A stretch of DNA of 64,000 nucleotides, from NCBI GenBank assembly GCA_902526175.1, contig CABZJY010000001.1, positions 66,682 through 130,681 on the forward strand. Reading direction: 5' to 3'. The position numbers were made by a program, and so were the translations under genes. This DNA is from an uncultured Alphaproteobacteria bacterium (GTDB taxonomy: Bacteria; Pseudomonadota; Alphaproteobacteria; Methylaequorales; Methylaequoraceae). The stretch's first letter is position 1, and each line of letters starts with the position of its first letter. Under the pieces are notes generated by a model. That model saw only the letters and a program-made list of their open reading frames with translations. It was not told where the DNA came from and did not search any database. Below are positions 49,415 to 61,247 of the stretch, in pieces.

Positions 49415-50353
49415 TTATATAATACCAAATCTTTTTTTCAATTCATCTTCTTCTCTTTTTGAAATTTTGATTTTGTCATTTTTCTTACCGTGAATTAAGT
49501 TTTTAATAAACTCAATCCCATGTTTTGATAAACTTATATTTTCTAATCTATGTGAAATAAATGCTTCATAAGTTAGTGGAACCCATTTTTTCAGTATATC
49601 AAGCATTGCTTCCGCATACACTCTTATTTCATATTGAGCATGATAATCAAATCTCAATGATAAAAAATGCATGAGATTATGAAGATCAATCTTCCAATAC
49701 CACTCAGTATAGGCATTTAGTGGAAGAATCATTCGTGCTAGTTCTCTTGCAACACCATTCTTATTTTTATCAATAGTTTTTCCGCTGTCATCTTCATTCA
49801 ACAATTCTCTGTAGTCACTAAATGCATGCTTTGAGTTTTTCTTTATTATATCTAGATATTCTTTTGATTCTATGTCATTAAGTTGTTGTTCTCTTCCTTG
49901 ATTGTTTGATTTTGATTGTGCCTGCATATTTTTTTTGTTTGGTATATAAAACTCACTTTCTAAAATTGAATATCTTGCCGAATATTCGTTTACATTTGCT
50001 GTTCTATGTCTTATCCACTGTCTAGCTACAAAAATTGGTAATTTAACATGAAATTTAATTTCATTCATTTCAAAAGGTGTAGAATGCCTATGACTTAAAA
50101 GGTAATTTATAAGGTTTTTATCTTGATTTATTTTTTTTGTACCCTTCCCATATGAAACTCTAGCAGCTTGAACTATTGAGCTATCATCTCCCATGTAATC
50201 AATTACTCTAATAAAACCTTTATCTAAAACCTTAAAACTTTTATATAAAATATTTTCAATTTTTTTTACTGTAGCTCTTCTAGTGGTATTAGTGTTTTTT
50301 CTGATCTTATTAATTTGATCAAGATTTTTTTTTTTCTGTTCCATCATAAACAT
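49415..50353 (-). CDS. thyX: FAD-dependent thymidylate synthase
   Basis: [19 protein letters not shown] contains the ThyX RHRxxxxxxxS motif. Confidence 0.9.
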
Positions 50354-50449
50354 TAAAACTTTTTTGTTTAAAAAAACAAATACAAAAATAATATTCTTTA
50401 ATTTTTTTTTTTTTTATATATTCTTAAGGTGCTGATTTTTCAGCTATAG

Positions 50450-50720
50450 CAATAAATGTTTGATGAGGAATCGAGGCGGACCCGGGGGCGGTACCCGGCG
50501 CCTCCACCAAAGTTTAAGGGGGCGATATAGGATCGACGTGCGTGGAATTATCAAAACTTTGCTCGGTGTAGTTCCGTCGTTATTGGACTAAAACATAATA
50601 AGTGCCAACGATAATGAAATGGTACTCGCTGCTTAAATATTAAGTAAGCGCGGCTGTGAGACGCCGGGCAACAGAAGTCTCATCGGCAAGGGCGGGCAAT
50701 TGTTCGCCCTTGTTTGTTTT
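50450..50720 (+). ncRNA. ssrA: Two-piece (circularly permuted) tmRNA; the 5' boundary is approximate
   Basis: Acceptor piece ends ...CCGGG-GGCGGTA-CCCGG-CGCCTCC-A-CCA at 50509. The coding piece starts GGGGGCG at 50518 and pairs with CGCCTCC, including a G3:U pair. Tag ORF 50604-50636 GCC AAC GAT AAT GAA ATG GTA CTC GCT GCT TAA encodes ANDNEMVLAA. CTCATCG (50679-50685) pairs with TGATGAG (50461-50467). Ends in a hairpin plus a T-run. Confidence 0.85.
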
Positions 50721-50832
50721 AGGCACAGTCACAAAGGGTTTCAGAGGATTCACTCTTCAACAAATAAGGGAAACAAAAGTGCAATAAGTTCAATGCACTT
50801 TCAATGCACTTTCAATGCACTCTTGTTTGTTC
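50672..50832 (+). repeat. Module M0 (attL-like): native ssrA left side, then core, terminator and right arm with 3x CAATGCAC
   Basis: Core 50672-50720. Right arm AGGCACAGTCACAAAGGGTTTCAGAGGATTCACTC... CAATGCAC at 50791, 50802 and 50813. Ends TCTTGTTTGTTC. Confidence 0.85.
50688..50720 (+). terminator. Rho-independent terminator of ssrA
   Basis: AAGGGCG-GGCAATTGTT-CGCCCTT followed by GTTTGTTTT. Identical copies lie at 53894-53926, 55823-55855 and 57385-57417. Confidence 0.75.
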
Positions 50833-50835
50833 TTT

Positions 50836-52038
50836 TTAATCATTAAGTTCAATAACACGATGGAATTTAAACAATAATTTTTTATGTTTAGGTTTTATTT
50901 TCCATAGAAAATCGTAACCCTTTTTTTTAATAAAATTTTGCCACCCATCTATTTTTACCCATAAAAGATAATCTAACGTAATATCTCCTGTCTCTAACAA
51001 AGTAAAAAAGTTGGTGGAATCTATAGATCCAGTATGTGTTAATGTTTTATAATGAAAACTTTCATTTTCTGATCGCTTCTGACCTGAGGTAATTGCCTTT
51101 ATCCAAAATGTCTCTTTATGTTTCTCCTCTAGTTTTTGGATAAGTTCACTTTTCAACCAGGCTACATCTTCTTCAATAATATTATTAGGTTGGTAGACCT
51201 GTAAGACTTTGTCATCTTTAATATCTAATCTCAAATCATGAGAATTTTTTTTTATTGCACTAATAGTATTGAAGATAACTTTAAAATGATATTTATCACT
51301 TGGTTTACCCCTTTTTTCTACAATGTCTTCTGAACTTTTAAGATTACTGATATTCCAATTTGGAACTTTAGAAAATAAAGTATCTCTAGTTTTAAAATCA
51401 TTTCTACTTGTTTTTATCTCTATTCCTTTATAATCAGGTTTGCCTGAACTATTGGGTTTAATGCCACATAGATTTTCAAATGTTAGACCAATACCTGTAT
51501 CACCTGCTTTAATTGTTTTTACAAATCCCAGTTTTGATATTTCCTTACATTTATCTAAAAGTTCATTTGAAAATTGAGAATAGATAACATTTTTTTTTAT
51601 TAACTCATTAACCCTTTTATCCGTTGAATTAAATAAATTTTCTAAACTAGAAGAACTACAATTAATTACTATTAACTTTTTATCACTTGCCATTAATGCT
51701 AATAAATCTGTAGGTTTTGAATATTTTGATAAGTTATAAATCCATATTCTTGGGTCACCATTTTTGGTATGAGGTCTGTAAAATGAAGTTTTTGTTTTAA
51801 TAATCTCATTTTTTGAAAATAAAAAAGTTTCTGAAATTTTTTTATGCTCCTCACCTTGTTTTTGCGAATGATAATCATGAATTTTATTTTCTTTTAAAAA
51901 ATCTCTAACTGAATGAGTTGCATCTATAATAGATTTACTAATAGCAGTTTCTGTGGGTACTAAAAAAGTAACCTGCTTATCATACCTTTTAAAAACATCT
52001 AATGTCTCAGTTATATTTTTGTTCGAAATAGAAAGCAT
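50836..52038 (-). CDS. Putative type II restriction endonuclease: MutH/MvaI/BcnI-like C-terminal nuclease domain plus an unknown N-terminal domain of about 170 aa (cassette A)
   Basis: GDTGIGLTFENLCGIKPNSSGKPDYKGIEIKTSR matches the G..G...E..G....PD-x4-E-x-K pattern of that nuclease family. Lies immediately downstream of a C5-MTase. Confidence 0.55.
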   Translation of the reverse strand: MLSISNKNITETLDVFKRYDKQVTFLVPTETAISKSIIDATHSVRDFLKENKIHDYHSQKQGEEHKKISETFLFSKNEIIKTKTSFYRPHTKNGDPRIWIYNLSKYSKPTDLLALMASDKKLIVINCSSSSLENLFNSTDKRVNELIKKNVIYSQFSNELLDKCKEISKLGFVKTIKAGDTGIGLTFENLCGIKPNSSGKPDYKGIEIKTSRNDFKTRDTLFSKVPNWNISNLKSSEDIVEKRGKPSDKYHFKVIFNTISAIKKNSHDLRLDIKDDKVLQVYQPNNIIEEDVAWLKSELIQKLEEKHKETFWIKAITSGQKRSENESFHYKTLTHTGSIDSTNFFTLLETGDITLDYLLWVKIDGWQNFIKKKGYDFLWKIKPKHKKLLFKFHRVIELND

Positions 52039-52051
52039 AAAACTATTTGAT

Positions 52052-53326
52052 TTAACTTATTTCATTTCTTAAAATTAAATTTTTAAAAAATTTTCCAATT
52101 TCGTAGGCAAGTTTTGGAGGCACTGCATTTCCTATTTGTGTATATTTTGGAACCTCTCTATCAAAAATAGATGTTCTTGGATTCCCTGCCCGCCTTATTC
52201 CACCTGTGGTTCTTTTTCCGTAAAATTTATACCAATCTGGAAATGTTTGTATTCTTGCCATCTCTCTGACAGTGATTGATCGTGGTTGAGAATAATGAAC
52301 AAAATCGTCTGGCAATGAACAAGTTGTTATCGAAGGTCCACTATTACTCCAAACTTTTGGTAATACTCTTTGAGCAAATTTTTTTGTCTTTAATTCTTCG
52401 GGTATTTTGCCATTATTTTTAATCATAAAATTGAATCTCTTGATAACAGTCTCGCTATGTCTACTATACTGTTGTTCTGATAGATCATTCAAATAACTTG
52501 AATTTCCGTTATTTTTTGACCTAAACATTTTTTGCCATTTATTTTGGGGTGCTTTACTATAAAATTTTGACTCTCCACCGTATTCAAAATCCTTATCTAC
52601 AAGGTCAGACAGAATTTCCTCAATATTAGGATAATCATTGGTTGGTTTTGGAAGAAACCCACCCTCAATTGCATCGATATTCTCTCGATTAACATCCTTA
52701 AAATAATTTTTGTTTAAACCTACTAGTATAACCCTTGGTCTATTTTGGGGAACACCATAATCCTTTGCATGAAGTAATTTATACTTGATTATATAATTAG
52801 GAATTTCTGTAAAAGTATTTAACACATCGTTGAAGATTTCACCTTTGATACCATTCTTTGTCCATCTTGCACTCAATAAACCTCTTACATTTTCAAATAA
52901 AAAAATTTTTGGTTGAATCTTAAAAATCATATATGCCATATCTTGATAAAGATGATTTGAAGGTAATTGAATCTTATCTACGGAATAAGATCGTCTAATT
53001 CCTATTCCAGAGAAACCTTGACACGGTGGTCCACCTACCAATAAATCAACAGGTGTATCTTTTAGATCAAGGTTTAGGTTTTTTTTTATTTCTGACTTAA
53101 ATTTTTCAAAAAATTTCTCATCACTAACAACATCTTTGATGTCATTTGAATTTAATTTTTTTCTCAAATACGGAAATTGATTATCTCTATTGATCAAATA
53201 AGATTCCAATGCATCATTATTAAGTTCATTTACATATATTGGAATAAAACCTGCTTGTTCTAAACCTAACGAGAGTCCTCCACAACCTGCAAATAAATCA
53301 ATTAGAGTAAATTTTTTTTTAGTCAT
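52052..53326 (-). CDS. DNA (cytosine-5)-methyltransferase (cassette A)
   Basis: Motif I DLFAGCGG, IV GGPPCQGFS, VI FENV, VIII PQNRPRV and X GNAVPP. Confidence 0.9.
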   Translation of the reverse strand: MTKKKFTLIDLFAGCGGLSLGLEQAGFIPIYVNELNNDALESYLINRDNQFPYLRKKLNSNDIKDVVSDEKFFEKFKSEIKKNLNLDLKDTPVDLLVGGPPCQGFSGIGIRRSYSVDKIQLPSNHLYQDMAYMIFKIQPKIFLFENVRGLLSARWTKNGIKGEIFNDVLNTFTEIPNYIIKYKLLHAKDYGVPQNRPRVILVGLNKNYFKDVNRENIDAIEGGFLPKPTNDYPNIEEILSDLVDKDFEYGGESKFYSKAPQNKWQKMFRSKNNGNSSYLNDLSEQQYSRHSETVIKRFNFMIKNNGKIPEELKTKKFAQRVLPKVWSNSGPSITTCSLPDDFVHYSQPRSITVREMARIQTFPDWYKFYGKRTTGGIRRAGNPRTSIFDREVPKYTQIGNAVPPKLAYEIGKFFKNLILRNEIS

Positions 53327-53405
53327 TTAATAAATATAACATGTTATTATTCATTACATATTAATCTAACATTGATAGTTTTTTATCTCCAATTTAATTT
53401 GGGGT

Positions 53406-53452
53406 ATAGTAACGACCTACCGTTCTGGAATAGTAACGACCTAATCGTTCTG
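53406..53452. promoter_or_regulatory. Tandem direct repeat (about 23 nt, two copies) in the divergent intergenic region of cassette A; candidate operator
   Basis: ATAGTAACGACCTACCGTTCTG (53406-53427) and ATAGTAACGACCTAATCGTTCTG (53430-53452), between the MTase start (53326) and the mini-ORF start (53523). Confidence 0.4.
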
Positions 53453-53522
53453 TCTCAAACTGTAAAGGTTTCCGTACATTCAAATTTTCTTGGTTAATAA
53501 CAATTAACAAAGGAGAACTAAA

Positions 53523-53639
53523 ATGGTTAAAATCATTTGGAAAGAACTTAAAGAGGATGACCCCATCTTCAAAACTGGATTTATAATCTCAAATCCAAAA
53601 CTAAACTTTAATAAAAAAAGTAAAGGAGATAAAAAATGA
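53523..53639 (+). CDS. Mini-ORF 1 (38 aa), cassette A
   Basis: MVKIIWKELKEDDPIFKTGFIISNPKLNFNKKSKGDKK, preceded by AAAGGAG 7 nt upstream of the ATG. Its stop overlaps the next start (ATGA). Confidence 0.4.
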   Translation: MVKIIWKELKEDDPIFKTGFIISNPKLNFNKKSKGDKK

Positions 53640-53770
53640 AGAAATTCTCTTTTTTCTCAATTCCTAGAAATAAAACAAGGAAGGAAACTATTGAAATAAT
53701 AAAAAATGCTCTCATTGCAAATGGGTGGAAATTTGTTGAAAAATCAGAAAGGAGTAAGATTAAGTCTTGA
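53636..53770 (+). CDS. Mini-ORF 2 (44 aa), cassette A
   Basis: MKKFSFFSIPRNKTRKETIEIIKNALIANGWKFVEKSERSKIKS, with its own AAAGGAG. Translationally coupled to mini-ORF 1. Its stop abuts module M1. Confidence 0.4.
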   Translation: MKKFSFFSIPRNKTRKETIEIIKNALIANGWKFVEKSERSKIKS

Positions 53771-54037
53771 GTCCGTGCAGAAGTCGTGCAGAAAATGACC
53801 TCATTTTCAATGCACTTTTCAATGCACTATTTTCAAAACCCCAAGAAATAAAGGGTTTTAGACCAAACACCGAGACACAGAAGTCTCATCGGCAAGGGCG
53901 GGCAATTGTTCGCCCTTGTTTGTTTTAAGCACAGTCACAAAGGGTTTCAGAGGACTCACTCATCACAAATAAGGGAAATAATAGTGCAATAAAGTACAGA
54001 CACTTTACAGACACTTTACAGACACTTTTGTTTGTTC
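53771..54037 (+). repeat. Module M1 (complete attP-like unit): left arm with 2x CAATGCAC, core, terminator, right arm with 3x TACAGACAC
   Basis: GTCCGTGCAGAAGTCGTGCAGAAAATGAC... CAATGCAC at 53808 and 53820. Core 53878-53926. TACAGACAC at 53995, 54006 and 54017. Ends TTTTGTTTGTTC. Confidence 0.85.
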
Positions 54038-54379
54038 AATATATGTTCTACTCTACATTTTGCAGACCCCAACATACACATCTCAAACACATCAAATGTA
54101 TAAATAGTTATAGATGATTATGGACTATGAGAAAATGTTAAGACACATGAACAATGTTTCTTGTGATATATGGAATGATTTAGTAATAGTTTAATTTATT
54201 GATTTTAAATTGAACACCTAGTCGATTAAACGAACTTTAACGGAAATTATAGGATTTAGAATCCATTCAGTTCTTTTGTAAGTCAATGTGAGTAGGATTT
54301 TTAAATTTATTAACACATAAATTTATAAACTTTTATACAGATCAATTATTAATGGAATAAAAATTGCTATTATGTTGGT

Positions 54380-55225
54380 ATGAAAGATAATGCAATAGGA
54401 TTAGTTAACGCCAAACATGGAAACTTCATGTTTTATAATTACGATTCATTTGTTGGAATGAGTATAAGAGAATACGGTGAGTGGTCGGAAAAATTACTAC
54501 AAAAAATTTTATCATTTATAAAAAAATCGGATTATATAATTGATATTGGTTCACATGTAGGTTTGATGAGTATACCAATTGCTAAAAAAGTTGGAGAAAA
54601 AGGGATGGTTTATTCTTTTGAACCTCAAAGAATGCTTTATAATCTTCAGTGTGGGAATCTCGCTTTAAATAACATAAAGAATATAGAAACTTTTAATGTC
54701 GCAATGGGCAAATCATCAAAACATATTTTACTTGATGATATTGACTATTCTGAAATAGGTAACTTTGGAGGTTTTGGGATAAAAAAAAATTATAATTATT
54801 CAGAATTTATTTCAATAAGAAAAAATAAAAAAATGAAAATAAAAATTCAAAATCTAGATAAATTTCTTAATTTAAAAAAATGTAATTTGATTAAACTAGA
54901 AGCAGAACAACTTGAAACTGAAATTCTAAAAGGAGGAAAAAAGTTTTTGGATAAATTTAGACCTATAATTGTTTCTGAGAATAACCCTAAAAATCCATAT
55001 ACACTTAATAAATATTTAATATCTCAAAACTACAAACTTTTTTGGTTTGAATACAAGTTCTTTAACGAAGATAATTATTTGGTAAATTCAAATAATTATT
55101 TCAAAAATTCAGGTAAATTTTACATATTTGCTTTTCCTAAAGAAAAAAAAATCAAAGACCCAGATATGGTTGAGATTGTTCGACCTGATCAAAAAAACAT
55201 GAATTACAATGGCAACCTTCAGTAA
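54380..55225 (+). CDS. FkbM-family SAM-dependent methyltransferase (cassette B)
   Basis: IIDIGSHVGLMSIPIAKK and VYSFEPQ motifs in the FkbM/Methyltransf_21 pattern. Confidence 0.65.
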   Translation: MKDNAIGLVNAKHGNFMFYNYDSFVGMSIREYGEWSEKLLQKILSFIKKSDYIIDIGSHVGLMSIPIAKKVGEKGMVYSFEPQRMLYNLQCGNLALNNIKNIETFNVAMGKSSKHILLDDIDYSEIGNFGGFGIKKNYNYSEFISIRKNKKMKIKIQNLDKFLNLKKCNLIKLEAEQLETEILKGGKKFLDKFRPIIVSENNPKNPYTLNKYLISQNYKLFWFEYKFFNEDNYLVNSNNYFKNSGKFYIFAFPKEKKIKDPDMVEIVRPDQKNMNYNGNLQ

Positions 55226-55362
55226 TTAAAAAATACTTCTGCATGGGAGTTTTTTTACTCCACAAAATTTGGTTTTACGCTTTTAAAGTTACACTATGAG
55301 AATCGGGATCTCTCCCTTTTGCATCAGTATAAACAAGATATTCAGTATCGATTTTCATTGTA

Positions 55363-55677
55363 TTATCGACTAATTGAACCTTTTAAACTTCCAGTAGAAT
55401 CAAAAATCTTTTTCTTATTTTTAATTCTTCCTTTGTATTTTCCATAAGGGTCATAAATCTTCCCACTACTTTCAATCTTTCCAAAAAACTTTCCATAAGG
55501 TGAGTATATACTTCCTTCTTTTGTTATTTTTCCTTTGTATTTTTCAAAGGGATCAAAAAAAAGACCATCATCAAATTTACCTTTGTATTTTCCATACTTA
55601 TCAAAGATTTTTTCATCTTCTGACTTCACTTCAAAAGATACAAACAAACAAATCAGAATCAGTAATATTTTTTGCAT
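55363..55677 (-). CDS. Small secreted protein with about five tandem [FY]-[DS]-x-[YF]-G-K-[YF]-K-G-[KR] repeats (cassette B)
   Basis: Signal peptide MQKILLILICLFVSFEV. Repeats: FDKYGKYKGKF, FDPFEKYKGKI, YSPYGKFFGKI, YDPYGKYKGRI and FDSTGSLKGSI. Confidence 0.5.
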   Translation of the reverse strand: MQKILLILICLFVSFEVKSEDEKIFDKYGKYKGKFDDGLFFDPFEKYKGKITKEGSIYSPYGKFFGKIESSGKIYDPYGKYKGRIKNKKKIFDSTGSLKGSISR

Positions 55678-55697
55678 AATTTATTGTAGCAGAAAAG

Positions 55698-55972
55698 TAG
55701 TCTGTGCAGAAGTCGTGCAGAAAATGACATCAATTTACAGACACTTTTACAGACACTTTTTAAGAACTCCGCAGAAACAGTGGGTCTTAGACCAAACACC
55801 GAGACACAGAAGTCTCATCGGCAAGGGCGGGCAATTGTTCGCCCTTGTTTGTTTTAGCGAAACTCACAAAGGGTTTCAGAGGATTCACTCAACAGAAAAT
55901 AAGGGAAAATAAAACGAGTAAAAGTGCAGACACACGCAGACACTAATGAGTGTTTTATATTTGTTCTATATG
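55698..55972 (+). repeat. Module M2: left arm with 2x TACAGACAC, core, terminator, right arm with 2x GCAGACAC
   Basis: TAGTCTGTGCAGAAGTCGTGCAGAAAATGAC... TACAGACAC at 55736 and 55748. Core 55807-55855. GCAGACAC at 55926 and 55936. Confidence 0.85.
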
Positions 55973-56054
55973 CATCTTTGGAAAATTCAAATATAATATA
56001 AAATACTTAAAGTAAGTAAAGAGTATATTGGTATAAAACTTGCTCCCTTAATTC

Positions 56055-57218
56055 ATGTATAAAACATCTTATTATGATGATTTTAAATGTATTGGATCAG
56101 AATGTCCTAATTCATGTTGCGTAGGTTGGGAGATAGATCTTGATATTAAAACTTTTCAAAAATATAGAGACTTGCATGATAGTAACATAAATAAATGCAT
56201 TTCTGTGAATCAAAAACCAACATATGACAAATTCGCAAAAATTAAAAATGTCAAGGATCAAAGATGTTCTTTTCTAGACAAAAATAATCTTTGTAATATT
56301 CAAAAAAAATATTCAGAAAAACTTCTATCTCCAACATGTTCAAATTTTCCAAGGCGGAAAGTTGATTTTGGGTCTAAACAATTGTCATCATGTTTACTAA
56401 GTTGTCCTGAAATATCGAGAATTTTTTTTGCAGACAATGAAGAATTTAAAATCATTGATGATGAGAAAAAATTAGTTGATACAAATTTAAAGATTATTCC
56501 TGACGAATTTAGGAACAATCTTTATGCAGTGTCTGGAGAAAGAGTCTTTAATTTCCTATATAAGTTATATAACAGTAGTGATATATCTCTAGAAAAATGT
56601 TTGATGATCACAAATCAAATTATTAACGAATTTTCTAATAAAAAAATAGAACCTCACGAACTTAATGAAGTTTTTAAGTATATAAAAAGTTTTTTTTTAA
56701 ATCATAAAATTGAAAAAAAAATAGATACAGAAATGCAACTAAACTTCTTAAAGAAATTTTTTAGATGTTTTCTAAACAAGAAAATTAATAATAAACTTAG
56801 TGAGTTAATTAACAAACTCTATGCAGATTGTTTTTTAAACAGAGACTTAAAAAAAATTAAATTATTATACGAAAAAAACAAATTACATAATTTCAATCAA
56901 TTTCTAATAAAACATCCAAATATATTTAAAAAATTTTTTATACATGAGTTCTTCGGTAAAACTCAATTGCTCACTAATGAAGATTTTGACTCTAATGACG
57001 GTTTTTATTTAATTTTTTTTATAGCATTGGTCTCTAAACTAATCATAATTTTAAATACTTTGTATAAAGACAAAATAGTCGTTGAGGATTTTATTGAGGT
57101 TATTTCTTTGGTCTCTAGATATTATGGTGGAAAAGATAATCTTGATAAAGACGAAAAAGAATTAGTATCTAAAGATAATCAAACCTTTGTGAATCTTTTT
57201 TATCTATTTTTTGGGTAA
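56055..57218 (+). CDS. FliB-like (flagellin lysine-N-methylase family) Cys-cluster protein (cassette C)
   Basis: The N-terminus YYDDFKCIGSECPNSCCVGWEIDLDIKTFQKYR matches the F.CIG..C...CC.GW.I..D..T..KY signature I recall for FliB/YkgJ-type Cys-cluster proteins. Confidence 0.55.
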   Translation: MYKTSYYDDFKCIGSECPNSCCVGWEIDLDIKTFQKYRDLHDSNINKCISVNQKPTYDKFAKIKNVKDQRCSFLDKNNLCNIQKKYSEKLLSPTCSNFPRRKVDFGSKQLSSCLLSCPEISRIFFADNEEFKIIDDEKKLVDTNLKIIPDEFRNNLYAVSGERVFNFLYKLYNSSDISLEKCLMITNQIINEFSNKKIEPHELNEVFKYIKSFFLNHKIEKKIDTEMQLNFLKKFFRCFLNKKINNKLSELINKLYADCFLNRDLKKIKLLYEKNKLHNFNQFLIKHPNIFKKFFIHEFFGKTQLLTNEDFDSNDGFYLIFFIALVSKLIIILNTLYKDKIVVEDFIEVISLVSRYYGGKDNLDKDEKELVSKDNQTFVNLFYLFFG

Positions 57219-57228
57219 AAAACTAAAG

Positions 57229-57517
57229 AAAAATGTTCCCAGATTACTATGGTTAAAAGTAAGTTCGTTCAGAAGTCGTTCTTAAAAAATAGAAAAACGC
57301 AGACACAAACGCAGACACTATTTTCAAAACCCTCAGAAATTAAGGGTTTTAGACCAAACACCGAGACACAGAAGTCTCATCGGCAAGGGCGGGCAATTGT
57401 TCGCCCTTGTTTGTTTTAGGGAGACTCACAAAGGGTTTCAGAGGATTAACTCTTCAACAAATAAGGGAAACAATAGTGCAATAAAGTACAGACACTTTAC
57501 AGACACTCTACAGACAC
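57229..57517 (+). repeat. Module M3: extended left arm with 2x ACGCAGACAC, core, terminator, right arm with 3x TACAGACAC
   Basis: AAAAATGTTCCCAGATTACTATGGTTAAAAGTAAGTTCGTTCAGAAGTCGTTC... ACGCAGACAC at 57297 and 57309. Core 57369-57417. TACAGACAC at 57487, 57498 and 57509. Confidence 0.85.
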
Positions 57518-57581
57518 TTTTTAAGAATACCAAGAAACAAAGGGACTTAAGTCATTTACCAAGACACAGGAATCTCATCTA
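57518..57581 (+). repeat. Module M3b: decayed left arm plus left half of core only (right end of the empty cassette D)
   Basis: TTTTTAAGAATACCAAGAAACAAAGGGACTTAAGTCATTTACCAAGACACAGGAATCTCATCT aligns with the M2 left arm TTTTTAAGAACTCCGCAGAAACAGTGGGTCTTAGACCAAACACCGAGACACAGAAGTCTCATCGG. Confidence 0.65.
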
Positions 57582-57753
57582 ATTTTTTGAAGTTTAAAAT
57601 GAAATTTGTGTCAATTTTTTCAATGTTAGTATTGAAATAACCCACCTTATAGATTGCTCCAAATTAAAGTATTTCTTAGATTTCAGATTTGATCATTATT
57701 TAAAATTGGCAAGAAACTTTGTTTAATGCTAATTTTCAATTTGAGATTTTAAT

Positions 57754-58509
57754 ATGCCAAAATATGAAATTAAATCTAAAACAAATAATTTAACATTCAA
57801 AAGATCAGATGGATCCCTTGGAGTAGTAGAAATTAGATTTTTTATTGAAGCAATTAAAGAATTTAACAGAATTATAAGAATTTTTGATGATGTAGAAATC
57901 CCGATTGGAGATATTTTAGGACTCAGGAATCTCAGTGCCTTCGTAGGAGAAGTTTTTAATCGATCAGTAAAAAAAATATCGGGTGGGTATATACAAAATA
58001 ATCCCCATCAAGATGGTTATCCCGACCTATTGATTATGGATAATATAGGAAAAAACTTATGGGACAAATTATCATCTCAACACCACGAAAAAGAACCTTT
58101 TAGTCCTTTTGTAGCGGGCGGAATAGAGGTAAAAGCAACATGTGGAGATCTTAAAAGTGGAAAATGGTTTACCGAAAAAAATATTCCTAAACCCATCATT
58201 GGTGACCAAAGATTGGAATGGGTTACGGGTTATAATTGGAAAGCACATCATAGAGAAACAAATAATCTAATTGGTTTGATATGGGATTTTGTAGAAAGAA
58301 AACCCACTATTGTTAGCATAATGTATTCTAATAATCTTAAGGAAGAAGATTGGGGCAAGACTGTAACTCCAAAAGAAGGAGGTGGAAGAACAACTTCTGT
58401 TAGTATAATGAATAAGATGGGAATTAAAAAAATGAAAGATGGAATAATATTATTGATAAATGACCAAAAATATTCAGTCCCTTTCATTAAAAAATTAAGT
58501 AAATATTAA
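57754..58509 (+). CDS. Putative type II restriction endonuclease, PD-(D/E)XK fold (cassette E)
   Basis: GYPDLLIMD ... GGIEVKATCG (PD...ExK). Convergent with the adjacent C5-MTase and overlapping it by 15 nt. Confidence 0.55.
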   Translation: MPKYEIKSKTNNLTFKRSDGSLGVVEIRFFIEAIKEFNRIIRIFDDVEIPIGDILGLRNLSAFVGEVFNRSVKKISGGYIQNNPHQDGYPDLLIMDNIGKNLWDKLSSQHHEKEPFSPFVAGGIEVKATCGDLKSGKWFTEKNIPKPIIGDQRLEWVTGYNWKAHHRETNNLIGLIWDFVERKPTIVSIMYSNNLKEEDWGKTVTPKEGGGRTTSVSIMNKMGIKKMKDGIILLINDQKYSVPFIKKLSKY

Positions 58510-59817
58510 TTGCTTTTGAATTAATGTTTCATTCAAGTCAAAGTTTTTCGAAGCAATACTTTGTAAATTTTTTAAAAGTATTTCTATGATTAATGGAGGA
58601 ACGCTCTCGCCAAGTGTGTCTCTTATAGTTGTTAGTTTAGCATCAACACCTTTGCATGTTTCAAAATAAAAATCTTCATTTGATATTGTATGTAATAAGC
58701 ATGCCTCTCTTATTGAAAGTGACCTATTTTGCTCTGGGTGTATCTTATTATCACTACAAACATAAGGAAAATTTCGAGTTATAGCAGAAGCAGGCAAGTC
58801 CCAATCCATTCTTTTATAAGCACTTGTAAAACCAGTCATAATCTGAATTTTTCCATTTTTTTTAATTGATGGTCTTGGAAGTAAAGCATTACAATTTTTA
58901 CAATAAACTGGAGTATCTCTTGAAGACTTATTAACTCCAAATGAATTTTTATTGCTTGAATGAAGTTTATTTTTGTTAAATCCACAACTTACACATTGAT
59001 TATCAAAAGCAGATTTGTTTAAGGGAGTATTGCTTACCCACCAAAATTTCATTTCATCTAATTTAGGCACTTTATGGAGAGGATCATTAAAGGAATTAGT
59101 TTTAGTCTTACCATCTAATTTTTCTAGACTACCAATTACATCCCTAACAGTTACCCATTTCATTAATCCTTCATTAGAGTTTTTTGAATGTGTCTTCGGG
59201 GGAAAAAAAGAACCATAATTCATTTTATGTTTCTTTATAAGGTCACTCCTAGTAGCAATAGTAATCAATCTCAATCGACGCTGGGGTATACCATAATCAG
59301 CAAATTCTATGACTTTTGGTTCAACTTCATATTCTGTAAGAGTATTTTTTATTATCTCAATAATAGGCAATATTTTTCCATCAAAAGGAATACTTGTATT
59401 GATCATTTCTGATACATTTTCAAAAATTACCGTGGTTGGTTTTAATTCTTTTATAATTTCTAATGCAGGTATTATTAATAAATTTCTAGGATCGATTTTA
59501 GGTCTTCTACCGGCATTTATTTCTGCTAAGAGTTTACCTCTTCCATTTTTAGACATTCCTTGACACGGAGGGGTAACAAGAGCGTAATCTAATTTATGTC
59601 CATTAAGTTTTAATAAAGTTTGTTGTATAATTTCTGATTTCTTTTCATTAATGTCACCCTCAATTAAGTGTGTTTCTGGAAAATTTCGCCGAAATAACTT
59701 ACATCTATCTTCAAGTAACTCATTTGCAACGATAGTCTCAATATTACATCTTTTTAGTGCTATATCACCTATTCCAGAGGATGAAAATAAACTAATCGCT
59801 TTATATCTATTATCCAT
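58495..59817 (-). CDS. DNA (cytosine-5)-methyltransferase (cassette E)
   Basis: Motif I LFSSSGIGD, IV TPPCQGMS, VI FENVSEM, VIII PQRRLRL and X GESVPP. Confidence 0.85.
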   Translation of the reverse strand: MDNRYKAISLFSSSGIGDIALKRCNIETIVANELLEDRCKLFRRNFPETHLIEGDINEKKSEIIQQTLLKLNGHKLDYALVTPPCQGMSKNGRGKLLAEINAGRRPKIDPRNLLIIPALEIIKELKPTTVIFENVSEMINTSIPFDGKILPIIEIIKNTLTEYEVEPKVIEFADYGIPQRRLRLITIATRSDLIKKHKMNYGSFFPPKTHSKNSNEGLMKWVTVRDVIGSLEKLDGKTKTNSFNDPLHKVPKLDEMKFWWVSNTPLNKSAFDNQCVSCGFNKNKLHSSNKNSFGVNKSSRDTPVYCKNCNALLPRPSIKKNGKIQIMTGFTSAYKRMDWDLPASAITRNFPYVCSDNKIHPEQNRSLSIREACLLHTISNEDFYFETCKGVDAKLTTIRDTLGESVPPLIIEILLKNLQSIASKNFDLNETLIQKQLIFT

Positions 59818-59983
59818 TTTGATATCAAAAACTATATCTATATAATTATAAACTAATCAATTATTTTTATCATACATCGTTCATCTTCTTTTTCAAACTA
59901 CACTAACATCTTTGTCCGCCGAAGTTATTAAAAACTTTTACCAAGATGTAGGAAATCAAAAACAAATGGTAAATGACCACATA

Positions 59984-60166
59984 AAATTGTTCCCAGATTA
60001 CTTTGGTTAAAAGTAAGTTTGTTCAGAAGTCGTTCTTAAAAAATAGAAAAACGCAGACACTATTTTCAAAACCGGAAGAAATAAAGTGTTTCAGACCATA
60101 CGCCGAGACACAGAAGTCAAATCGGCAAGGGTTTGAAATTGTTAATTGTTCGCTCTTATTTGTTTT
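59984..60166 (+). repeat. Module M4 (attR-like): left arm with 1x ACGCAGACAC plus a decayed core and terminator, probably the displaced ancestral ssrA 3' end
   Basis: The left arm matches the M3 left arm from AAAATTGTTCCCAGATTACTTTGG. The core reads CAGAAGTCAAATCGGCAAGGGTTTGAAATTGTTAATTGTTCGCTCTTATTTGTTTT, with substitutions and an insertion that break the hairpin. Confidence 0.7.
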
Positions 60167-60215
60167 AGGAAGTCTCGCAAAAATTTCGAAAATATTCTTG
60201 TAATAATATTTGTTT

Positions 60216-61070
60216 TTAAATTACATAACCTATTTTCTCTTTATTGATTTTATTAATTAAATGTTCAGGTTTTTTTGTGAAAAAATGATTTCTCCATATA
60301 GTTCTAGATGATTTTATCTTAGGTTTGGGAATTGTGAGTGGTTTAAATTCTCTGATTAAACCTTTATTAGTCATTAAGTAAGAGTCATAACCAAAATTTA
60401 TCAATAGATTAAATAGTTTATTATTAAAAGGATTATTGATGTTAAACTCTATAATAAGATCAACATTTCTTAATGTTTCCAATATTTTTGTTGATGAAAT
60501 TATTTTATATTCCCACCCTTCAACATCAATTTTAATTAAATAATTTTTTTTTGGATTAATATCTTTAAGTACACTAGAAAAGGGAATTGTACTCACTTCT
60601 ATAGTCTCATATTTAATTTTTTCATAAATTCTTTTCATTTCCTCAATATCTAATGTAGACGAAGATGCAAGTTTAGATGAATTCTTTGCAATAGGTACAT
60701 GGAATTTTGATTTTCCAAATTTATTAGAAATTGCGGTCTCATTAATTTCAAAAAAAATATTATTAAGCTTCATTATTTTTTTTATATATTCAATATTTCT
60801 TGGGTATGCCTCATATGCAGTAGTTGGCCATCCCTTAATTTTTGTTGCATAAAAACTAAATAAACCAATGTTAGCTCCAATATCAAAAAAGTGATCGTAT
60901 CTAAAAAAATCAAAAAAAATTAACATTTCTTCCTCATACGAGTTTGAAATAAATATTTCTATGAGGAGATTAGAGTCCTTAATATTAGTATATTTTGTGC
61001 CTTCAAATATTAGTGAAGGCGGAAATATTCTTAATTTAAATAATATTCTTTTCAATAATGAAGTAAACAT
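60216..61070 (-). CDS. FkbM-family SAM-dependent methyltransferase
   Basis: FFDIGANIGLFSFYATK and AYEAYP motifs. Confidence 0.65.
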   Translation of the reverse strand: MFTSLLKRILFKLRIFPPSLIFEGTKYTNIKDSNLLIEIFISNSYEEEMLIFFDFFRYDHFFDIGANIGLFSFYATKIKGWPTTAYEAYPRNIEYIKKIMKLNNIFFEINETAISNKFGKSKFHVPIAKNSSKLASSSTLDIEEMKRIYEKIKYETIEVSTIPFSSVLKDINPKKNYLIKIDVEGWEYKIISSTKILETLRNVDLIIEFNINNPFNNKLFNLLINFGYDSYLMTNKGLIREFKPLTIPKPKIKSSRTIWRNHFFTKKPEHLINKINKEKIGYVI

Positions 61071-61247
61071 TTTTCAATCTGATGTGTCTGAACAGTAAAC
61101 TATTTTTTTTGTTTTATGAAGATTTTTTTTACTCATCTATTTCATTTCATAAAATCTATTTCTATAATTTTGTCTTTAAGTTATTTATCTATATCTTTTA
61201 AAAATGCGAATAAAATTGTAAAAAAATAATACCAAAATTATATTGAT

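What the first reader, a model, noticed from the sequence alone, without database searches (positions are those of the whole stretch)
50791..60060. Cassette-specific 8-10-nt motifs in helical-phase tandem copies, three on one end and two on the other, like lambda attP arm sites
Seen in sequence:

| Cassette | Motif | Left end | Right end |
|---|---|---|---|
| A | CAATGCAC | 50791, 50802, 50813 (11-nt spacing) | 53808, 53820 (12-nt spacing) |
| B | TACAGACAC | 53995, 54006, 54017 | 55736, 55748 |
| C | GCAGACAC / ACGCAGACAC | 55926, 55936 | 57297, 57309 |
| D | TACAGACAC | 57487, 57498, 57509 | none |
| E | ACGCAGACAC | none | 60051 |

- The motif changes from one cassette to the next but matches across the two ends of the same cassette.
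- Each 265-bp module is therefore chimeric. Its left arm belongs to the cassette on its left and its right arm to the cassette on its right. This is what exchange within the invariant core predicts.
- AGACAC is also the left half-site region of the core (CCGAGACACAGAAG).
- The far left arm has a further 11-nt-phased pair CGTGCAGAAGT / CGTGCAGAAAA (53774-53795). It contains CAGAAGTC, the same 8-mer that starts the core.

Established knowledge: lambda attP (about 240 bp) has two arm-type Int sites on the P arm and three tandem sites on the P' arm, recognised by the Int N-terminal domain.

Inference:
- These motifs are arm-type protein-binding sites.
- At least two or three specificity classes of unseen recombinase or accessory protein act on one shared core.
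- I am not aware of such a modular arrangement, with a shared core and private arms, being described for tmRNA-targeting elements.
Basis: partly seen in the sequence, partly recalled or inferred. Interest (0 to 1): 0.85.

Follow-up and report, generated by a model that had tools for sequence, protein, structure and literature searches.

The report
Integrase arm sites flanking tmRNA-island cassettes

Summary
Every motif copy sits at the stated coordinates, and all five CAATGCAC in 64 kb flank cassette A.

In about 110 related SAR11-type loci the same roughly 265-bp module recurs.
- It has the 2-copy, 12-nt cluster before the core and the 1-3-copy, 11-nt cluster after it.
- There are at least 15 motif variants, with consensus NNNANNCA[C/G].
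- Left and right ends of a cassette match far more often than chance (16 of 40 against 5.9±2.1), but about 60% do not match.

The key new result concerns the conserved distal right arm. It is the 3' end of a deleted tyrosine-integrase gene; window 59879-60004 keeps 42 codons.
- Full-length integrases of about 400 aa exist on rare ~9-kb elements.
- In those elements the stop codon abuts an intact attP with matched arms (GCAATACAC 2+3).
- The extra β-sheet-plus-helix N-terminal domain is the most variable part of the protein.

So the motifs are very probably arm-type sites. The cassettes are probably integrase-less derivatives that can be mobilised in trans. A one-to-one pairing of N-domain and motif is not shown: with n=8 there is one conflict. 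I rate this a new variant of a known kind.

The parts
50417..50727 (+). Two-piece (permuted) alphaproteobacterial tmRNA gene, tag ANDNEMVLAA. Its 3' end is the attB.
   Evidence: ARAGORN. Rfam RF01849, 207.6 bits, and RF04321.
50671..50723 (+). Core copy 0, ACAGAAGTCTCATCGG...TTTTAGG: the last ~14 nt of the tmRNA plus its terminator hairpin. This is the identity block shared with every module.
   Evidence: Alignment A1. Empty site L066 against occupied site L067.
50724..50824 (+). Left (P') arm of cassette A. Three CAATGCAC copies at 50791, 50802 and 50813, period 11.
50836..53326 (-). Cargo of cassette A: an MvaI/BcnI-type restriction endonuclease (50836-52038) and a C5 DNA methyltransferase (52052-53326).
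   Evidence: Pfam PF15515 at 6e-45 and PF00145 at 8e-62.
53770..53876 (+). Right (P) arm of cassette A. It holds the conserved box CGTGCAGAAGT x2 (53774-53795), two CAATGCAC copies (53808, 53820; period 12), a hairpin (53835-53859) and the core-left half-site CCGAGAC (53870-53876).
53877..53929 (+). Core copy 1. The putative overlap is ACAGAA(G), flanked by the imperfect inverted repeat CCGAGAC / GTCTCatCGG.
53930..54030 (+). Left arm of cassette B. Three TACAGACAC copies at 53995, 54006 and 54017.
54380..55677 (.). Cargo of cassette B: an FkbM-type methyltransferase (54380-55225, +) and a 104-aa beta-flower-like protein (55363-55677, -).
55699..55805 (+). Right arm of cassette B. Box, then two TACAGACAC copies (55736, 55748).
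55806..55858 (+). Core copy 2.
55859..55950 (+). Left arm of cassette C: GTGCAGACAC and ACGCAGACAC (55926, 55936).
56055..57218 (+). Cargo of cassette C: a 387-aa protein with a weak match to the CxxCxxCC domain family.
   Evidence: Pfam PF03692, weak match.
57227..57256 (+). Nine-codon remnant of the integrase 3' end (RKMFPDYYG*).
57261..57367 (+). Right arm of cassette C. Degenerate box, then two ACGCAGACAC copies (57297, 57309).
57368..57420 (+). Core copy 3.
57421..57579 (+). Empty cassette D. The left arm with three TACAGACAC copies (57487, 57498, 57509) is fused to a remnant right arm and a decayed core (57559-57579). This is a deletion between left and right motif copies. The same structure occurs in L037.
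57754..59817 (.). Cargo of cassette E: a 251-aa protein with no Pfam hit (57754-58509, +), a possible restriction enzyme, and a C5 DNA methyltransferase (58495-59817, -). The left arm is missing.
59879..60010 (+). Remnant of the last ~42 codons of the tyrosine-integrase gene (...AEVIKNFYQDVGNQKQMVNDHIKLFPDYFG*).
   Evidence: tblastn with P0140 residues 353-394, E=1.6e-10..
60011..60109 (+). Right arm of cassette E, with a single ACGCAGACAC copy (60051).
   Evidence: (repeat D4).
60110..60169 (+). Terminal degenerate core (CAGAAGTCaaATCGG, with an insertion in the terminator).

Best explanation
The region is an 'additive' genomic island at the 3' end of the tmRNA gene of a SAR11/Pelagibacteraceae-type bacterium.

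It was built by repeated site-specific integration of members of one family of integrative elements. Their attP is lambda-like and is laid out, in order, as follows:
1. The integrase gene's stop codon.
2. A conserved box, CGTGCAGAAGT x2.
3. Two arm sites 12 nt apart.
4. A hairpin.
5. The core-type inverted repeat CCGAGAC-ACAGAA-GTCTCatCGG, followed by the tmRNA terminator.
6. About 70 bp of conserved P' arm.
7. Three arm sites 11 nt apart.

The 9-nt motifs (NNNANNCA[C/G]) are the arm-type sites. They are bound by the extra N-terminal domain of the element's tyrosine integrase, which bridges the arms to the core as lambda Int does.

The five cassettes in the window have lost the integrase by deletion; remnants of 9 and 42 codons remain. 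They keep attL and attR. Cassettes whose two arms still match (A, B and C) should still be excisable and re-integrable in trans by an integrase of matching arm specificity supplied by a rare autonomous ~9-kb element. D and E are decayed.

Arm motifs and the integrase N-domain have both diversified strongly while the core has stayed fixed.

What is shown:
- The anatomy.
- The integrase remnants.
- Intact integrase plus attP with matched arms.
- Co-variation of left and right ends.
- Presence/absence polymorphism of cassettes.

What is inferred:
- Binding of the N-domain to the motifs.
- Mobilisation in trans.
- Pairing of specificity between N-domain and motif.
For: (1) The core is the tmRNA 3' end plus its terminator.
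- Empty site L066 and occupied site L067, which share an identical ThyX, define an identity block of about 60 bp.
- Four strains with identical ThyX differ in their tmRNA-proximal cassettes.

(2) The motif clusters are far from chance and are fixed in register.
- Chance tests.
- Period 12 on the right arm (38 of 40) and 11 on the left (22 of 23); copies at most 2 on the right and 1-4 on the left.
- Within a cluster, substitutions fall in the linkers (TTT/TCT/TCC) and not in the 8-mers.
- The conservation profile shows invariant A4, C7, A8 and hypervariable positions 1-3 and 5-6 inside otherwise conserved arms.

(3) Left and right ends of a cassette share an 8-mer in 16 of 40 cases, against 5.9±2.1 on permutation (p about 5e-5).
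- Outside the window it is 13 of 36 against 5.0±1.9.
- The two arms of one module match only weakly: 11 of 54 against 6.6±2.1.

(4) The distal P arm is the 3' end of an integrase gene.
- Homologues P0134-P0146 are 396-408 aa.
- They hit PHROG 1 'integrase' at 2e-25.
- They hit Pfam Phage_integrase, Phage_int_M and Phage_int_SAM_5 only weakly or near the cut-off.
- The AlphaFold model has four β-strands and a helix in residues 4-69, ahead of the core-binding and catalytic domains.
- Foldseek matches Cre, lambda Int, IntI and Tn1549 Int, and the alignment to full-length lambda Int spans 393 columns.

(5) L103 and L104 come from two samples. In both, the integrase stop is followed by a P arm with GCAATACAC x2, the core, a P' arm with GCAATACAC x3, and then element genes.
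- L102 shows the same element, circularly permuted, integrated in a 496-kb contig.
- L105 has two further modules with matched arms next to integrase genes.

(6) The N-domain segment YWYVRFYVGRQFSKSGNIYQ is the least conserved window of the integrase. Mean pairwise identity is 0.54, against 0.61-0.93 in the other 25-column windows.

(7) No integrase was found in the window or in the first ~70 array loci: regex screens, a Pfam screen and phmmer/hmmsearch. No intact integrase was found there by tblastn either. This fits cassettes that depend on a recombinase supplied in trans.
Against: - No binding or recombination experiment exists.
- About 60% of consecutive-module cassettes have non-matching ends. 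Matching is therefore not needed for persistence, and many cassettes may be immobile fossils.
- The same N-domain (RSRYYNILFYVGLHHSKSGNFQQ) is adjacent to GTGATACAC arms (L114), GCATACAC arms (L105) and a non-tmRNA sequence (L107-109).
- Four different N-domains all sit next to motifs ending in ATACAC.
- The N-terminal domain has no Pfam arm-binding hit. The structural model is of moderate confidence (pLDDT 71, pTM 0.46).
- No excised circle of an integrase-less cassette was observed.
- L105 may be an assembly chimera.
- Full-length integrases are very rare: about a dozen clusters among 5.8 billion proteins.
Confidence: 0.72

Rival explanations
1. The modules are fossil att sites with no present-day site-specific activity. 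Cassettes are gained, lost and shuffled by RecA-dependent homologous recombination between the conserved ~265-bp modules and the tmRNA or flanking genes, after DNA uptake. The motif clusters are inherited relics, and the matching of left and right ends only reflects common descent of the two arms from one ancestral attP.
For: - No integrase is present in cis in the window or in about 70 array loci.
- 60% of cassettes have mismatched ends. The commonest small cassette carries at least 6 different arm combinations, as expected from crossovers in shared cargo or distal arms.
- Deletions between left and right motif copies occur: the empty cassettes in the window, L037 and L096, and the core-less L111.
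- Full-length integrases are very rare.
Against: - Arms remain highly conserved from the box to the core whatever the cargo, while the deletion endpoints upstream vary.
- The 8-mers are kept identical while the linkers drift.
- Period and maximum copy number are fixed.
- Intact autonomous elements with matched attP exist in several samples.
- This view explains maintenance, not the architecture, and it is compatible with the main explanation for the origin of the array.
Confidence: 0.2
2. The phased motifs are bound not by the integrase but by another element-encoded or host protein: a directionality factor (Xis/Cox-like), the serine resolvase, or a replication or partition protein that treats them as iterons of the excised circle. 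The integrase N-domain would then bind the conserved CGTGCAGAAGT boxes instead.
For: - Helically phased tandem direct repeats are also typical of Xis/Cox sites and of iterons (general knowledge).
- The CGTGCAGAAGT x2 box is strongly conserved next to the integrase stop codon, and a related GTGCAATAAGT precedes the left-arm motifs.
- The ~9-kb element has about 10 ORFs of unknown function and a resolvase.
- The N-domain/motif pairing is not clean.
Against: - The motifs lie on both arms in a 2+3 layout around the core, as integrase arm sites do. Directionality-factor sites are usually on one arm only.
- The hypervariable protein segment found so far is the integrase N-domain.
- Iterons are normally 17-22 bp and lie next to a rep gene. 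No Rep-like protein was detected.
Confidence: 0.06
3. The repeats are a slippage-prone minisatellite, or phased T-tracts that merely bend DNA, with no sequence-specific reader.
For: - Left-arm copy number varies from 1 to 4. L031 has 4 copies of the motif that has 3 in the window.
- T-runs separate the copies at about one helical turn.
Against: - The right arm never exceeds 2 copies, and the period is fixed at 12 against 11.
- The 8-mers are conserved while the T-rich linkers vary.
- The same 9-mer recurs on the other arm 1-5 kb away.
- Positions A4, C7 and A8 are invariant across all classes.
Confidence: 0.02

Closest known systems
Bacteriophage lambda attP / Int (heterobivalent tyrosine integrase with arm-type sites P1, P2 and P'1-P'3)
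   Same: - The attP is about 250 bp.
- The core has inverted half-sites.
- There are two sites on one arm and three tandem sites on the other.
- The integrase gene abuts an arm of attP.
- The integrase has an extra N-terminal domain ahead of the core-binding and catalytic domains (lambda record).
   Different: - The target is the tmRNA 3' end.
- All five sites are direct repeats.
- The int gene abuts the two-site arm here, whereas in the lambda record an Int-binding site overlaps the 3' end of int.
- The arm-site sequence is hypervariable between relatives that share one core. From memory, lambda and HK022 share arm sites and differ in core.
- Most copies here have lost int.
- Sequence similarity to lambda Int is only at fold level (12-14% identity).
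Tycheposons and additive flexible genomic islands at tRNA/tmRNA genes of streamlined marine bacteria (Prochlorococcus, 10.1101/2020.12.28.424599; Methylophilaceae, PMC10872708; SAR11 gMED islands, PMC11796062)
   Same: - The islands lie next to t(m)RNA genes.
- They are built of cassettes separated by partial repeats of the gene's 3' end.
- Cargo is strain-specific.
- Many units lack an integrase.
- The hosts have streamlined genomes.
- PMC11796062 notes one SAR11 island linked to a tmRNA.
   Different: - Searches of those papers returned no passage describing arm sites: the term 'arm' has 0 occurrences in the tycheposon preprint, and the passages returned for tmRNA, integrase, tycheposon and cassette terms in the other two say nothing about att arms.
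- The SAR11 paper reports 'no canonical mobile genetic elements' and only one integrase, at another island.
- Here the complete attP architecture, the integrase family and the autonomous ~9-kb element are identified.
ssrA-specific genomic islands of Dehalococcoides (PMC3146451)
   Same: - Many islands are integrated at the single tmRNA gene of a small genome.
- About half lack the integration module (16 of 31 have one).
- They are a major source of strain diversity.
   Different: - The host phylum and the integration module are different.
- The abstract mentions no phased, hypervariable arm repeats. The full text was not read.
CIMEs (cis-mobilisable elements): att-flanked, integrase-less derivatives of integrative elements (reviewed in PMC5704250)
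   Same: - The cassettes keep attL and attR but have no recombinase.
- They sit in tandem ('accretion') with related elements.
- They are expected to depend on a related element's integrase.
   Different: - CIMEs were defined for ICE/IME systems of Firmicutes.
- No conjugation genes are present here.
- Dependence on a helper is not tested here.
Integron cassette arrays
   Same: - An ordered array of small cargo cassettes is separated by recombination sites that are chimeric between neighbours.
- New cassettes appear to enter at one fixed end.
   Different: - There is no intI, attI or Pc next to the array.
- The sites are double-stranded lambda-type att sites with arms, not folded attC hairpins.
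- The cassettes carry their own regulatory regions and genes on both strands.

Membership tests
Lambda-type (heterobivalent tyrosine integrase) attP / attL / attR | An identity block shared by attP and attB that contains the crossover | tested here: met
   A block of 53-60 bp, ACAGAAGTC...TTTTAGG(GAGACTC), is shared by the tmRNA 3' end and all modules. The empty site L066 and the occupied site L067 delimit it.
Lambda-type (heterobivalent tyrosine integrase) attP / attL / attR | Core-type inverted half-sites around a 6-8-bp overlap | tested here: inconclusive
   The imperfect inverted repeat CCGAGAC-ACAGAA-GTCTCatCGG lies at the left edge of the identity block. The attB side reads CCGGGCA. The cleavage positions are not determined.
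Lambda-type (heterobivalent tyrosine integrase) attP / attL / attR | Repeated arm-type sites on both arms, distinct from the core sites | tested here: met
   There are 2 copies on the P arm and 3 on the P' arm of one 9-mer in intact attP (L103, L104, L105) and in window cassettes A and B. The register is fixed.
Lambda-type (heterobivalent tyrosine integrase) attP / attL / attR | An adjacent tyrosine integrase with an extra N-terminal arm-binding domain | tested here: inconclusive
   Absent from the window apart from remnants of 9 and 42 codons. Present in related elements: ~400 aa, PHROG 1 at 2e-25, with Phage_int_M and Phage_integrase hits that are weak or near the cut-off. Residues 1-80 form an extra β4-α domain in the model. 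There is no Pfam arm-domain hit, and binding was not tested.
Lambda-type (heterobivalent tyrosine integrase) attP / attL / attR | The protein binds the arm sites and recombination depends on them | not testable with these tools
   Needs EMSA or footprinting and recombination assays.
Tycheposon / additive island at a t(m)RNA gene | Lies at the 3' end of a tRNA or tmRNA gene, with partial repeats of that end between cassettes | tested here: met
Tycheposon / additive island at a t(m)RNA gene | An element-encoded recombinase of the tycheposon clades at the element's end | not tested
   The integrase family found here was not placed in a phylogeny with tycheposon integrases.
Integron | An intI gene with attI and Pc next to the array, and attC hairpin sites | tested here: not met
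   No integrase flanks the array: thyX lies upstream, and FkbM and MBOAT genes lie downstream. The modules are 265-bp att sites with arms, not attC sites.
CIME-like integrase-less derivative | Flanked by attL and attR of a known integrative element, with no recombinase gene | tested here: met
   Cassettes A to C have both arms. No integrase was found in the window by the regex screens or phmmer/hmmsearch with known integrases, and tblastn with P0140 finds only the 42-codon remnant in cassette E; Pfam covered 10 ORFs of the array region and its flanks. The integrase 3' remnants show the derivation.
CIME-like integrase-less derivative | Mobilised by the integrase of a related element | not testable with these tools
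   Only indirect evidence: presence/absence polymorphism among near-identical strains.
Slippage microsatellite | Freely variable copy number with no constraint on unit sequence or position | tested here: not met
   Copies are at most 2 on the right and 1-4 on the left. The period is fixed and the 8-mers are conserved while the linkers vary.

The most novel reading that the evidence does not exclude
SAR11, long regarded as almost free of mobile elements, would host a family of small (~9-kb) tmRNA-targeting integrative elements and their integrase-less cassette derivatives. In this family the integrase's arm-binding domain and its five arm sites have radiated into a dozen or more orthogonal specificity classes on one invariant core. 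That would amount to a natural 'address code': individual cassettes in a tandem array could be excised or captured selectively, and competing elements could not excise each other. It would also provide a ready-made set of orthogonal integrase/att pairs.
Probability: 0.3. Interest if true: 0.85.

Novelty: new variant of a known kind. Interest (0 to 1): 0.68.

Why it matters
[quoted passage not shown] PMC11796062 found none in its islands.
- This work gives the tmRNA-linked flexible island a concrete mechanism. It defines an attP, identifies an integrase family and an autonomous element, and shows an array of defence and methyltransferase cassettes that differs between strains with identical neighbouring genes.
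- Arm sites and the integrase N-domain diversify together in extent while the core stays fixed. That pattern is unusual for tyrosine integrases, and a handful of named sequences now make it directly testable.
- If the specificity pairing holds, it explains how tandem satellites avoid cross-excision. It would also supply orthogonal recombination tools.

Tried and rejected
- **Phage helper.** The core, P-arm and P'-arm patterns found nothing real in IMG/VR; the 16-mer hits were chance matches in unrelated, mostly higher-GC contigs. blastn of a module against 50,697 phage genomes found nothing. The HTVC019P attP region shows no similar repeats.
- **Integrase in cis.** A regex for H..R...[GAS]H...Y, phmmer with IntA, lambda Int and HTVC019P Int, and a Pfam screen of 72 ORF clusters were all negative. 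These screens missed the remnants because they are short and carry GN instead of GH before the catalytic Tyr. The remnants were found only by noticing that the distal P arm is conserved as a reading frame.
- **'Class-2' right arms** (CCAATTACATAAATCGTGCAGAAA). I suspected they were next to an integrase in L011 and L019, and they were not. They later proved to follow the stop codon of the second integrase lineage, P0146.
- **Age gradient.** More intact left arms next to the tmRNA is not significant: mean 2.0 against 1.7 copies, p=0.19.
- **Module as the co-varying unit.** This is weak: 11 of 54 against 6.6±2.1.
- **First co-variation statistic.** Longest common substring was contaminated by the shared T-run flanks. 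I replaced it with shared 8-mers that contain no TTT or AAAA.
- **Cargo R-M specificity.** MvaI and BcnI cut CCWGG and CCSGG (from memory), which are unrelated to CAATGCAC. I rejected this by inspection.
- **PDB sequence search** with the integrase profile gave only a marginal hit.

Full report
**1. What is in the window**

A two-piece (permuted) alphaproteobacterial tmRNA gene lies at 50417-50727, with tag ANDNEMVLAA. The closest loci elsewhere are SAR11-type single-cell and metagenome-assembled genomes, described in their records as Pelagibacteraceae, 'Rickettsiales' or uncultured Alphaproteobacteria.

Downstream of the tmRNA gene, a module of about 265 bp recurs.
- Copies are M1 53749-54041, M2 55676-55975 and M3 57236-57510.
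- A decayed copy lies at 57509-57579, and a degenerate terminal copy M4 at 59990-60197.
- The stretch shared with the tmRNA locus starts at ACAGAAGTC (50671). It covers the last ~14 nt of the tmRNA and its terminator hairpin.

Between the modules lie cargo genes.

| Cassette | Cargo |
|---|---|
| A | MvaI/BcnI-type restriction enzyme and C5 methyltransferase |
| B | FkbM methyltransferase and a small protein |
| C | 387-aa protein with a weak CxxCxxCC-domain match |
| D | empty |
| E | 251-aa protein and a second C5 methyltransferase |

**2. The observation**

- All five CAATGCAC in 64 kb sit at the two ends of cassette A. Shuffles expect 1.0, and 0 of 100 reach 5.
- Thirteen of the 16 CAGACAC copies sit in the arms listed. 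Shuffles expect 1.8 in total.

'D' is a cassette whose cargo was deleted by recombination between a left and a right motif copy. Its three left copies are followed at once by the sequence that normally follows the right copies, and then by a decayed core. The identical structure is present in a metagenome contig, L037. 'E' has lost its left arm.

**3. The wider sample**

I scanned genome contigs (19 loci) and metagenome contigs (40 loci) with the module-specific core. I added look-ups around ThyX homologues. A profile of the module found 119 copies.

The architecture is constant.
- The conserved box CGTGCAGAAGT x2 comes first.
- A short lineage-specific spacer follows.
- Then come two copies of a 9-mer, 12 nt apart (38 of 40 arms with exact duplicates).
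- Then a hairpin that keeps its pairing through compensatory changes.
- Then CCGAGAC-ACAGAA-GTCTCatCGG and the terminator.
- Then about 70 bp of conserved P' arm.
- Last come one to three (once four) copies of a 9-mer, 11 nt apart (22 of 23).

The 9-mer has the form NNNANNCA[C/G]. Positions 1-3 and 5-6 are hypervariable, with at least 15 variants: TCAATGCAC, GCAATACAC, GCAACGCAC, GCGACCCAC, TGCACACAC, TGCATACAC, TACAGACAC, GTGATACAC, GCGACACAG, TGCACGCAG and others. These positions change in concert in all copies of an arm. Within a cluster, substitutions are seen in the linkers (TTT, TCT, TCC) and not in the 8-mers.

**4. Co-variation**

I took 40 cassettes bounded by consecutive modules and asked whether their left and right arms share an 8-mer.
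- They do in 16 cases, against 5.9±2.1 after permutation (p about 5e-5).
- Without the window the figures are 13 of 36 against 5.0±1.9 (p about 2e-4).
- As a control, the two arms of one module match only weakly: 11 of 54 against 6.6±2.1.

About 60% of cassettes do not match. These are mostly decayed ends and a very common ~600-bp cassette encoding a 54-aa secreted peptide, which occurs with many arm combinations.

**5. Cassettes come and go**

- L066 and L067 have the same ThyX protein. In L066 the tmRNA is followed directly by the native flank. L067 has one extra cassette.
- Four genomes with identical ThyX (L096-L099) differ in their tmRNA-proximal cassettes. L097 carries an NgoFVII-type R-M cassette with TGCATATAC x3 on the left and one copy of the near-identical GCATATAA on the right. 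L096 carries GTGATACAC x2 on the left and x1 on the right.
- The comparison of empty and occupied sites bounds the identity block at about 60 bp.

**6. The missing recombinase**

Motif, phmmer and Pfam screens found no integrase in the window or in the first ~70 loci. Nothing related exists in IMG/VR or in phage genomes.

The clue was that the sequence just upstream of the conserved box (TGTTCCCAGATTACTATGGTAAAAAGTAG) is conserved as an open reading frame.
- Across cassettes it extends to ...LRHSSLNQRLESGVSMEFVADKGNTSPEMMKNYYRDVRNKKQMVNDHIKLFPDYYGKK*.
- That is box II and the catalytic tyrosine region of a tyrosine recombinase. Compare lambda Int's GHKSDTMASQYRDD.
- The stop codon sits directly before the box.
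- The window keeps 9 codons in cassette C (57227-57256) and 42 codons in cassette E (59879-60004; tblastn E=1.6e-10).

Searching 5.8 billion proteins with these remnants returned mostly fragments. It also returned a dozen full-length proteins of 396-408 aa, P0134-P0146.
- They hit PHROG 1 'integrase' at 2e-25.
- They hit Pfam Phage_integrase, Phage_int_M and Phage_int_SAM_5 only weakly or near the cut-off.
- The AlphaFold model (pLDDT 71) matches Cre, lambda Int, IntI and Tn1549 Int.
- It has an extra N-terminal unit of four β-strands and a helix (residues 4-69) ahead of the core-binding domain.
- I read this as the layout of arm-binding integrases. No arm-domain Pfam family is hit.

**7. Intact elements**

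In L103 and L104, which come from two samples, the integrase P0140 is followed by a complete attP. It has GCAATACAC x2 (12 nt apart), the core, and GCAATACAC x3 (11 nt apart). The other genes of a ~9-kb element follow: a 196-aa serine resolvase/invertase and about 10 ORFs of unknown function.

L102 shows the same gene order, circularly permuted, inside a 496-kb contig. There the integrase (with frameshifts) lies at the right end, next to attR. Both the attP junction and the integrated form are therefore seen.

L105 carries three related units. Two of its modules have matched arms: TCAATACAC 2+3, and GCACACAC.

A second integrase lineage, P0146 (about 45% identity), ends at the 'class-2' right arm (CCAATTACATAAATCGTGCAGAAA) seen in several arrays.

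**8. N-domain against motif**

The least conserved window of the integrase is the N-domain segment YWYVRFYVGRQFSKSGNIYQ. Its mean pairwise identity is 0.54, against 0.61-0.93 in the other 25-column windows. In the model this segment is the β3 strand, the loop after it and the β4 strand.

Eight integrase/arm pairs could be read.

| Integrase | Adjacent arm motif |
|---|---|
| P0140 | GCAATACAC |
| L105-1 | TCAATACAC |
| L102 | TCAATACAC |
| P0139 | GCAACGCAC |
| P0141 | GCACACAC |
| P0142 | GTGATACAC |
| L105-3 | GCATACAC |
| P0146 | ACGCAGACAC |

- P0140 and L105-1 differ by five residues in the N-domain β-region (about residues 17-45) and by one base in the motif.
- P0142 and L105-3 have the same N-domain but motifs that share only ATACAC.
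- P0134 has that N-domain too and is followed by an unrelated sequence.

The predicted link is plausible. It is not established.

**9. Interpretation**

The motifs are best read as arm-type sites of this integrase family. The window's cassettes are integrase-deleted derivatives that keep attL and attR. They are analogous to CIMEs or to tycheposon remnants. Those with matching arms (A, B and C) remain candidates for mobilisation in trans. Homologous recombination between modules probably also shuffles and deletes cassettes, and it explains many of the mismatches.

**10. Novelty**

Tandem integrase-less cassettes at t(m)RNA genes are known.
- Additive islands and tycheposons: 10.1101/2020.12.28.424599 and PMC10872708.
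- Dehalococcoides ssrA islands: PMC3146451.
- PMC11796062 notes a tmRNA-linked SAR11 island but reports no mobile elements.

I found no description of the attP architecture, the integrase family, or the joint hypervariability of arm sites and N-domain on a fixed core. I rate this a new variant of a known kind, of clear interest to specialists in marine microbial genomics and in site-specific recombination.

Noticed in passing
window 49415-50727: thyX lies back-to-back with the two-piece tmRNA gene. PMC9004378 reports thyX next to a SAR11-like two-piece ssrA in the phage Melnitz, which suggests that the phage captured this host block.
   Followed up: partly
window 53835-53859 (also 55765-55790 and 57327-57351): A hairpin lies between the right-arm motifs and the core (AAAACCCC..GGGTTTT). 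It keeps its pairing through compensatory changes in about 80 sequence variants. It looks like a bidirectional terminator or a protein site.
   Followed up: partly
window 53774-53795; conserved in nearly all modules: The box CGTGCAGAAGT x2 comes directly after the integrase stop codon and is among the most conserved parts of the arm. It contains CAGAAGTC, the first 8 nt of the core. A related GTGCAATAAGT precedes the left-arm motifs. Its function is unknown.
   Followed up: partly
L003:1249-1842 (also L004, L005, L010, L012, L014, L028 and others): A very common ~600-bp cassette encodes a 54-aa secreted, E/K-rich peptide followed by a strong hairpin. It has a single-copy left motif and many different combinations of left and right arms.
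   Followed up: partly
L103:1-9016; L102; L105; L106: The autonomous element is about 9 kb. It carries the integrase, a 196-aa serine resolvase/invertase (PF00239, phrog_125) and about 10 ORFs with no Pfam or PHROG match. It is absent from IMG/VR, so its nature (plasmid-like, satellite or other) is open.
   Followed up: partly
L105:1-21098: Three related integrase-bearing units lie in tandem on a long-read contig. Arm motifs match within modules, not across units. This may be an assembly chimera of circles or attP x attP accretion.
   Followed up: partly
L107-L109, L113: Integrases P0134 and P0145, which end in ...YYKNK*, belong to the same family. They are followed by a completely different sequence (CTCCCCTATTCTGACTCGCC...). 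They may use another attachment site.
   Followed up: no
L111:2241-2330: An integrase and its two right-arm motifs are fused directly to the sequence that normally follows the left-arm motifs, so the core is deleted. This is the same kind of recombination between motif copies that produced the empty cassettes.
   Followed up: no
window 60216-62720: Beyond the terminal degenerate core lie another FkbM-type methyltransferase and an MBOAT acyltransferase. They may be older cassettes whose att sites have decayed.
   Followed up: no
L066:8716-8853, L096-L099: The 'native flank' genes beyond short arrays are themselves followed by strongly decayed modules, so part of the conserved flank appears to be made of ancient, fixed cassettes.
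   Followed up: partly
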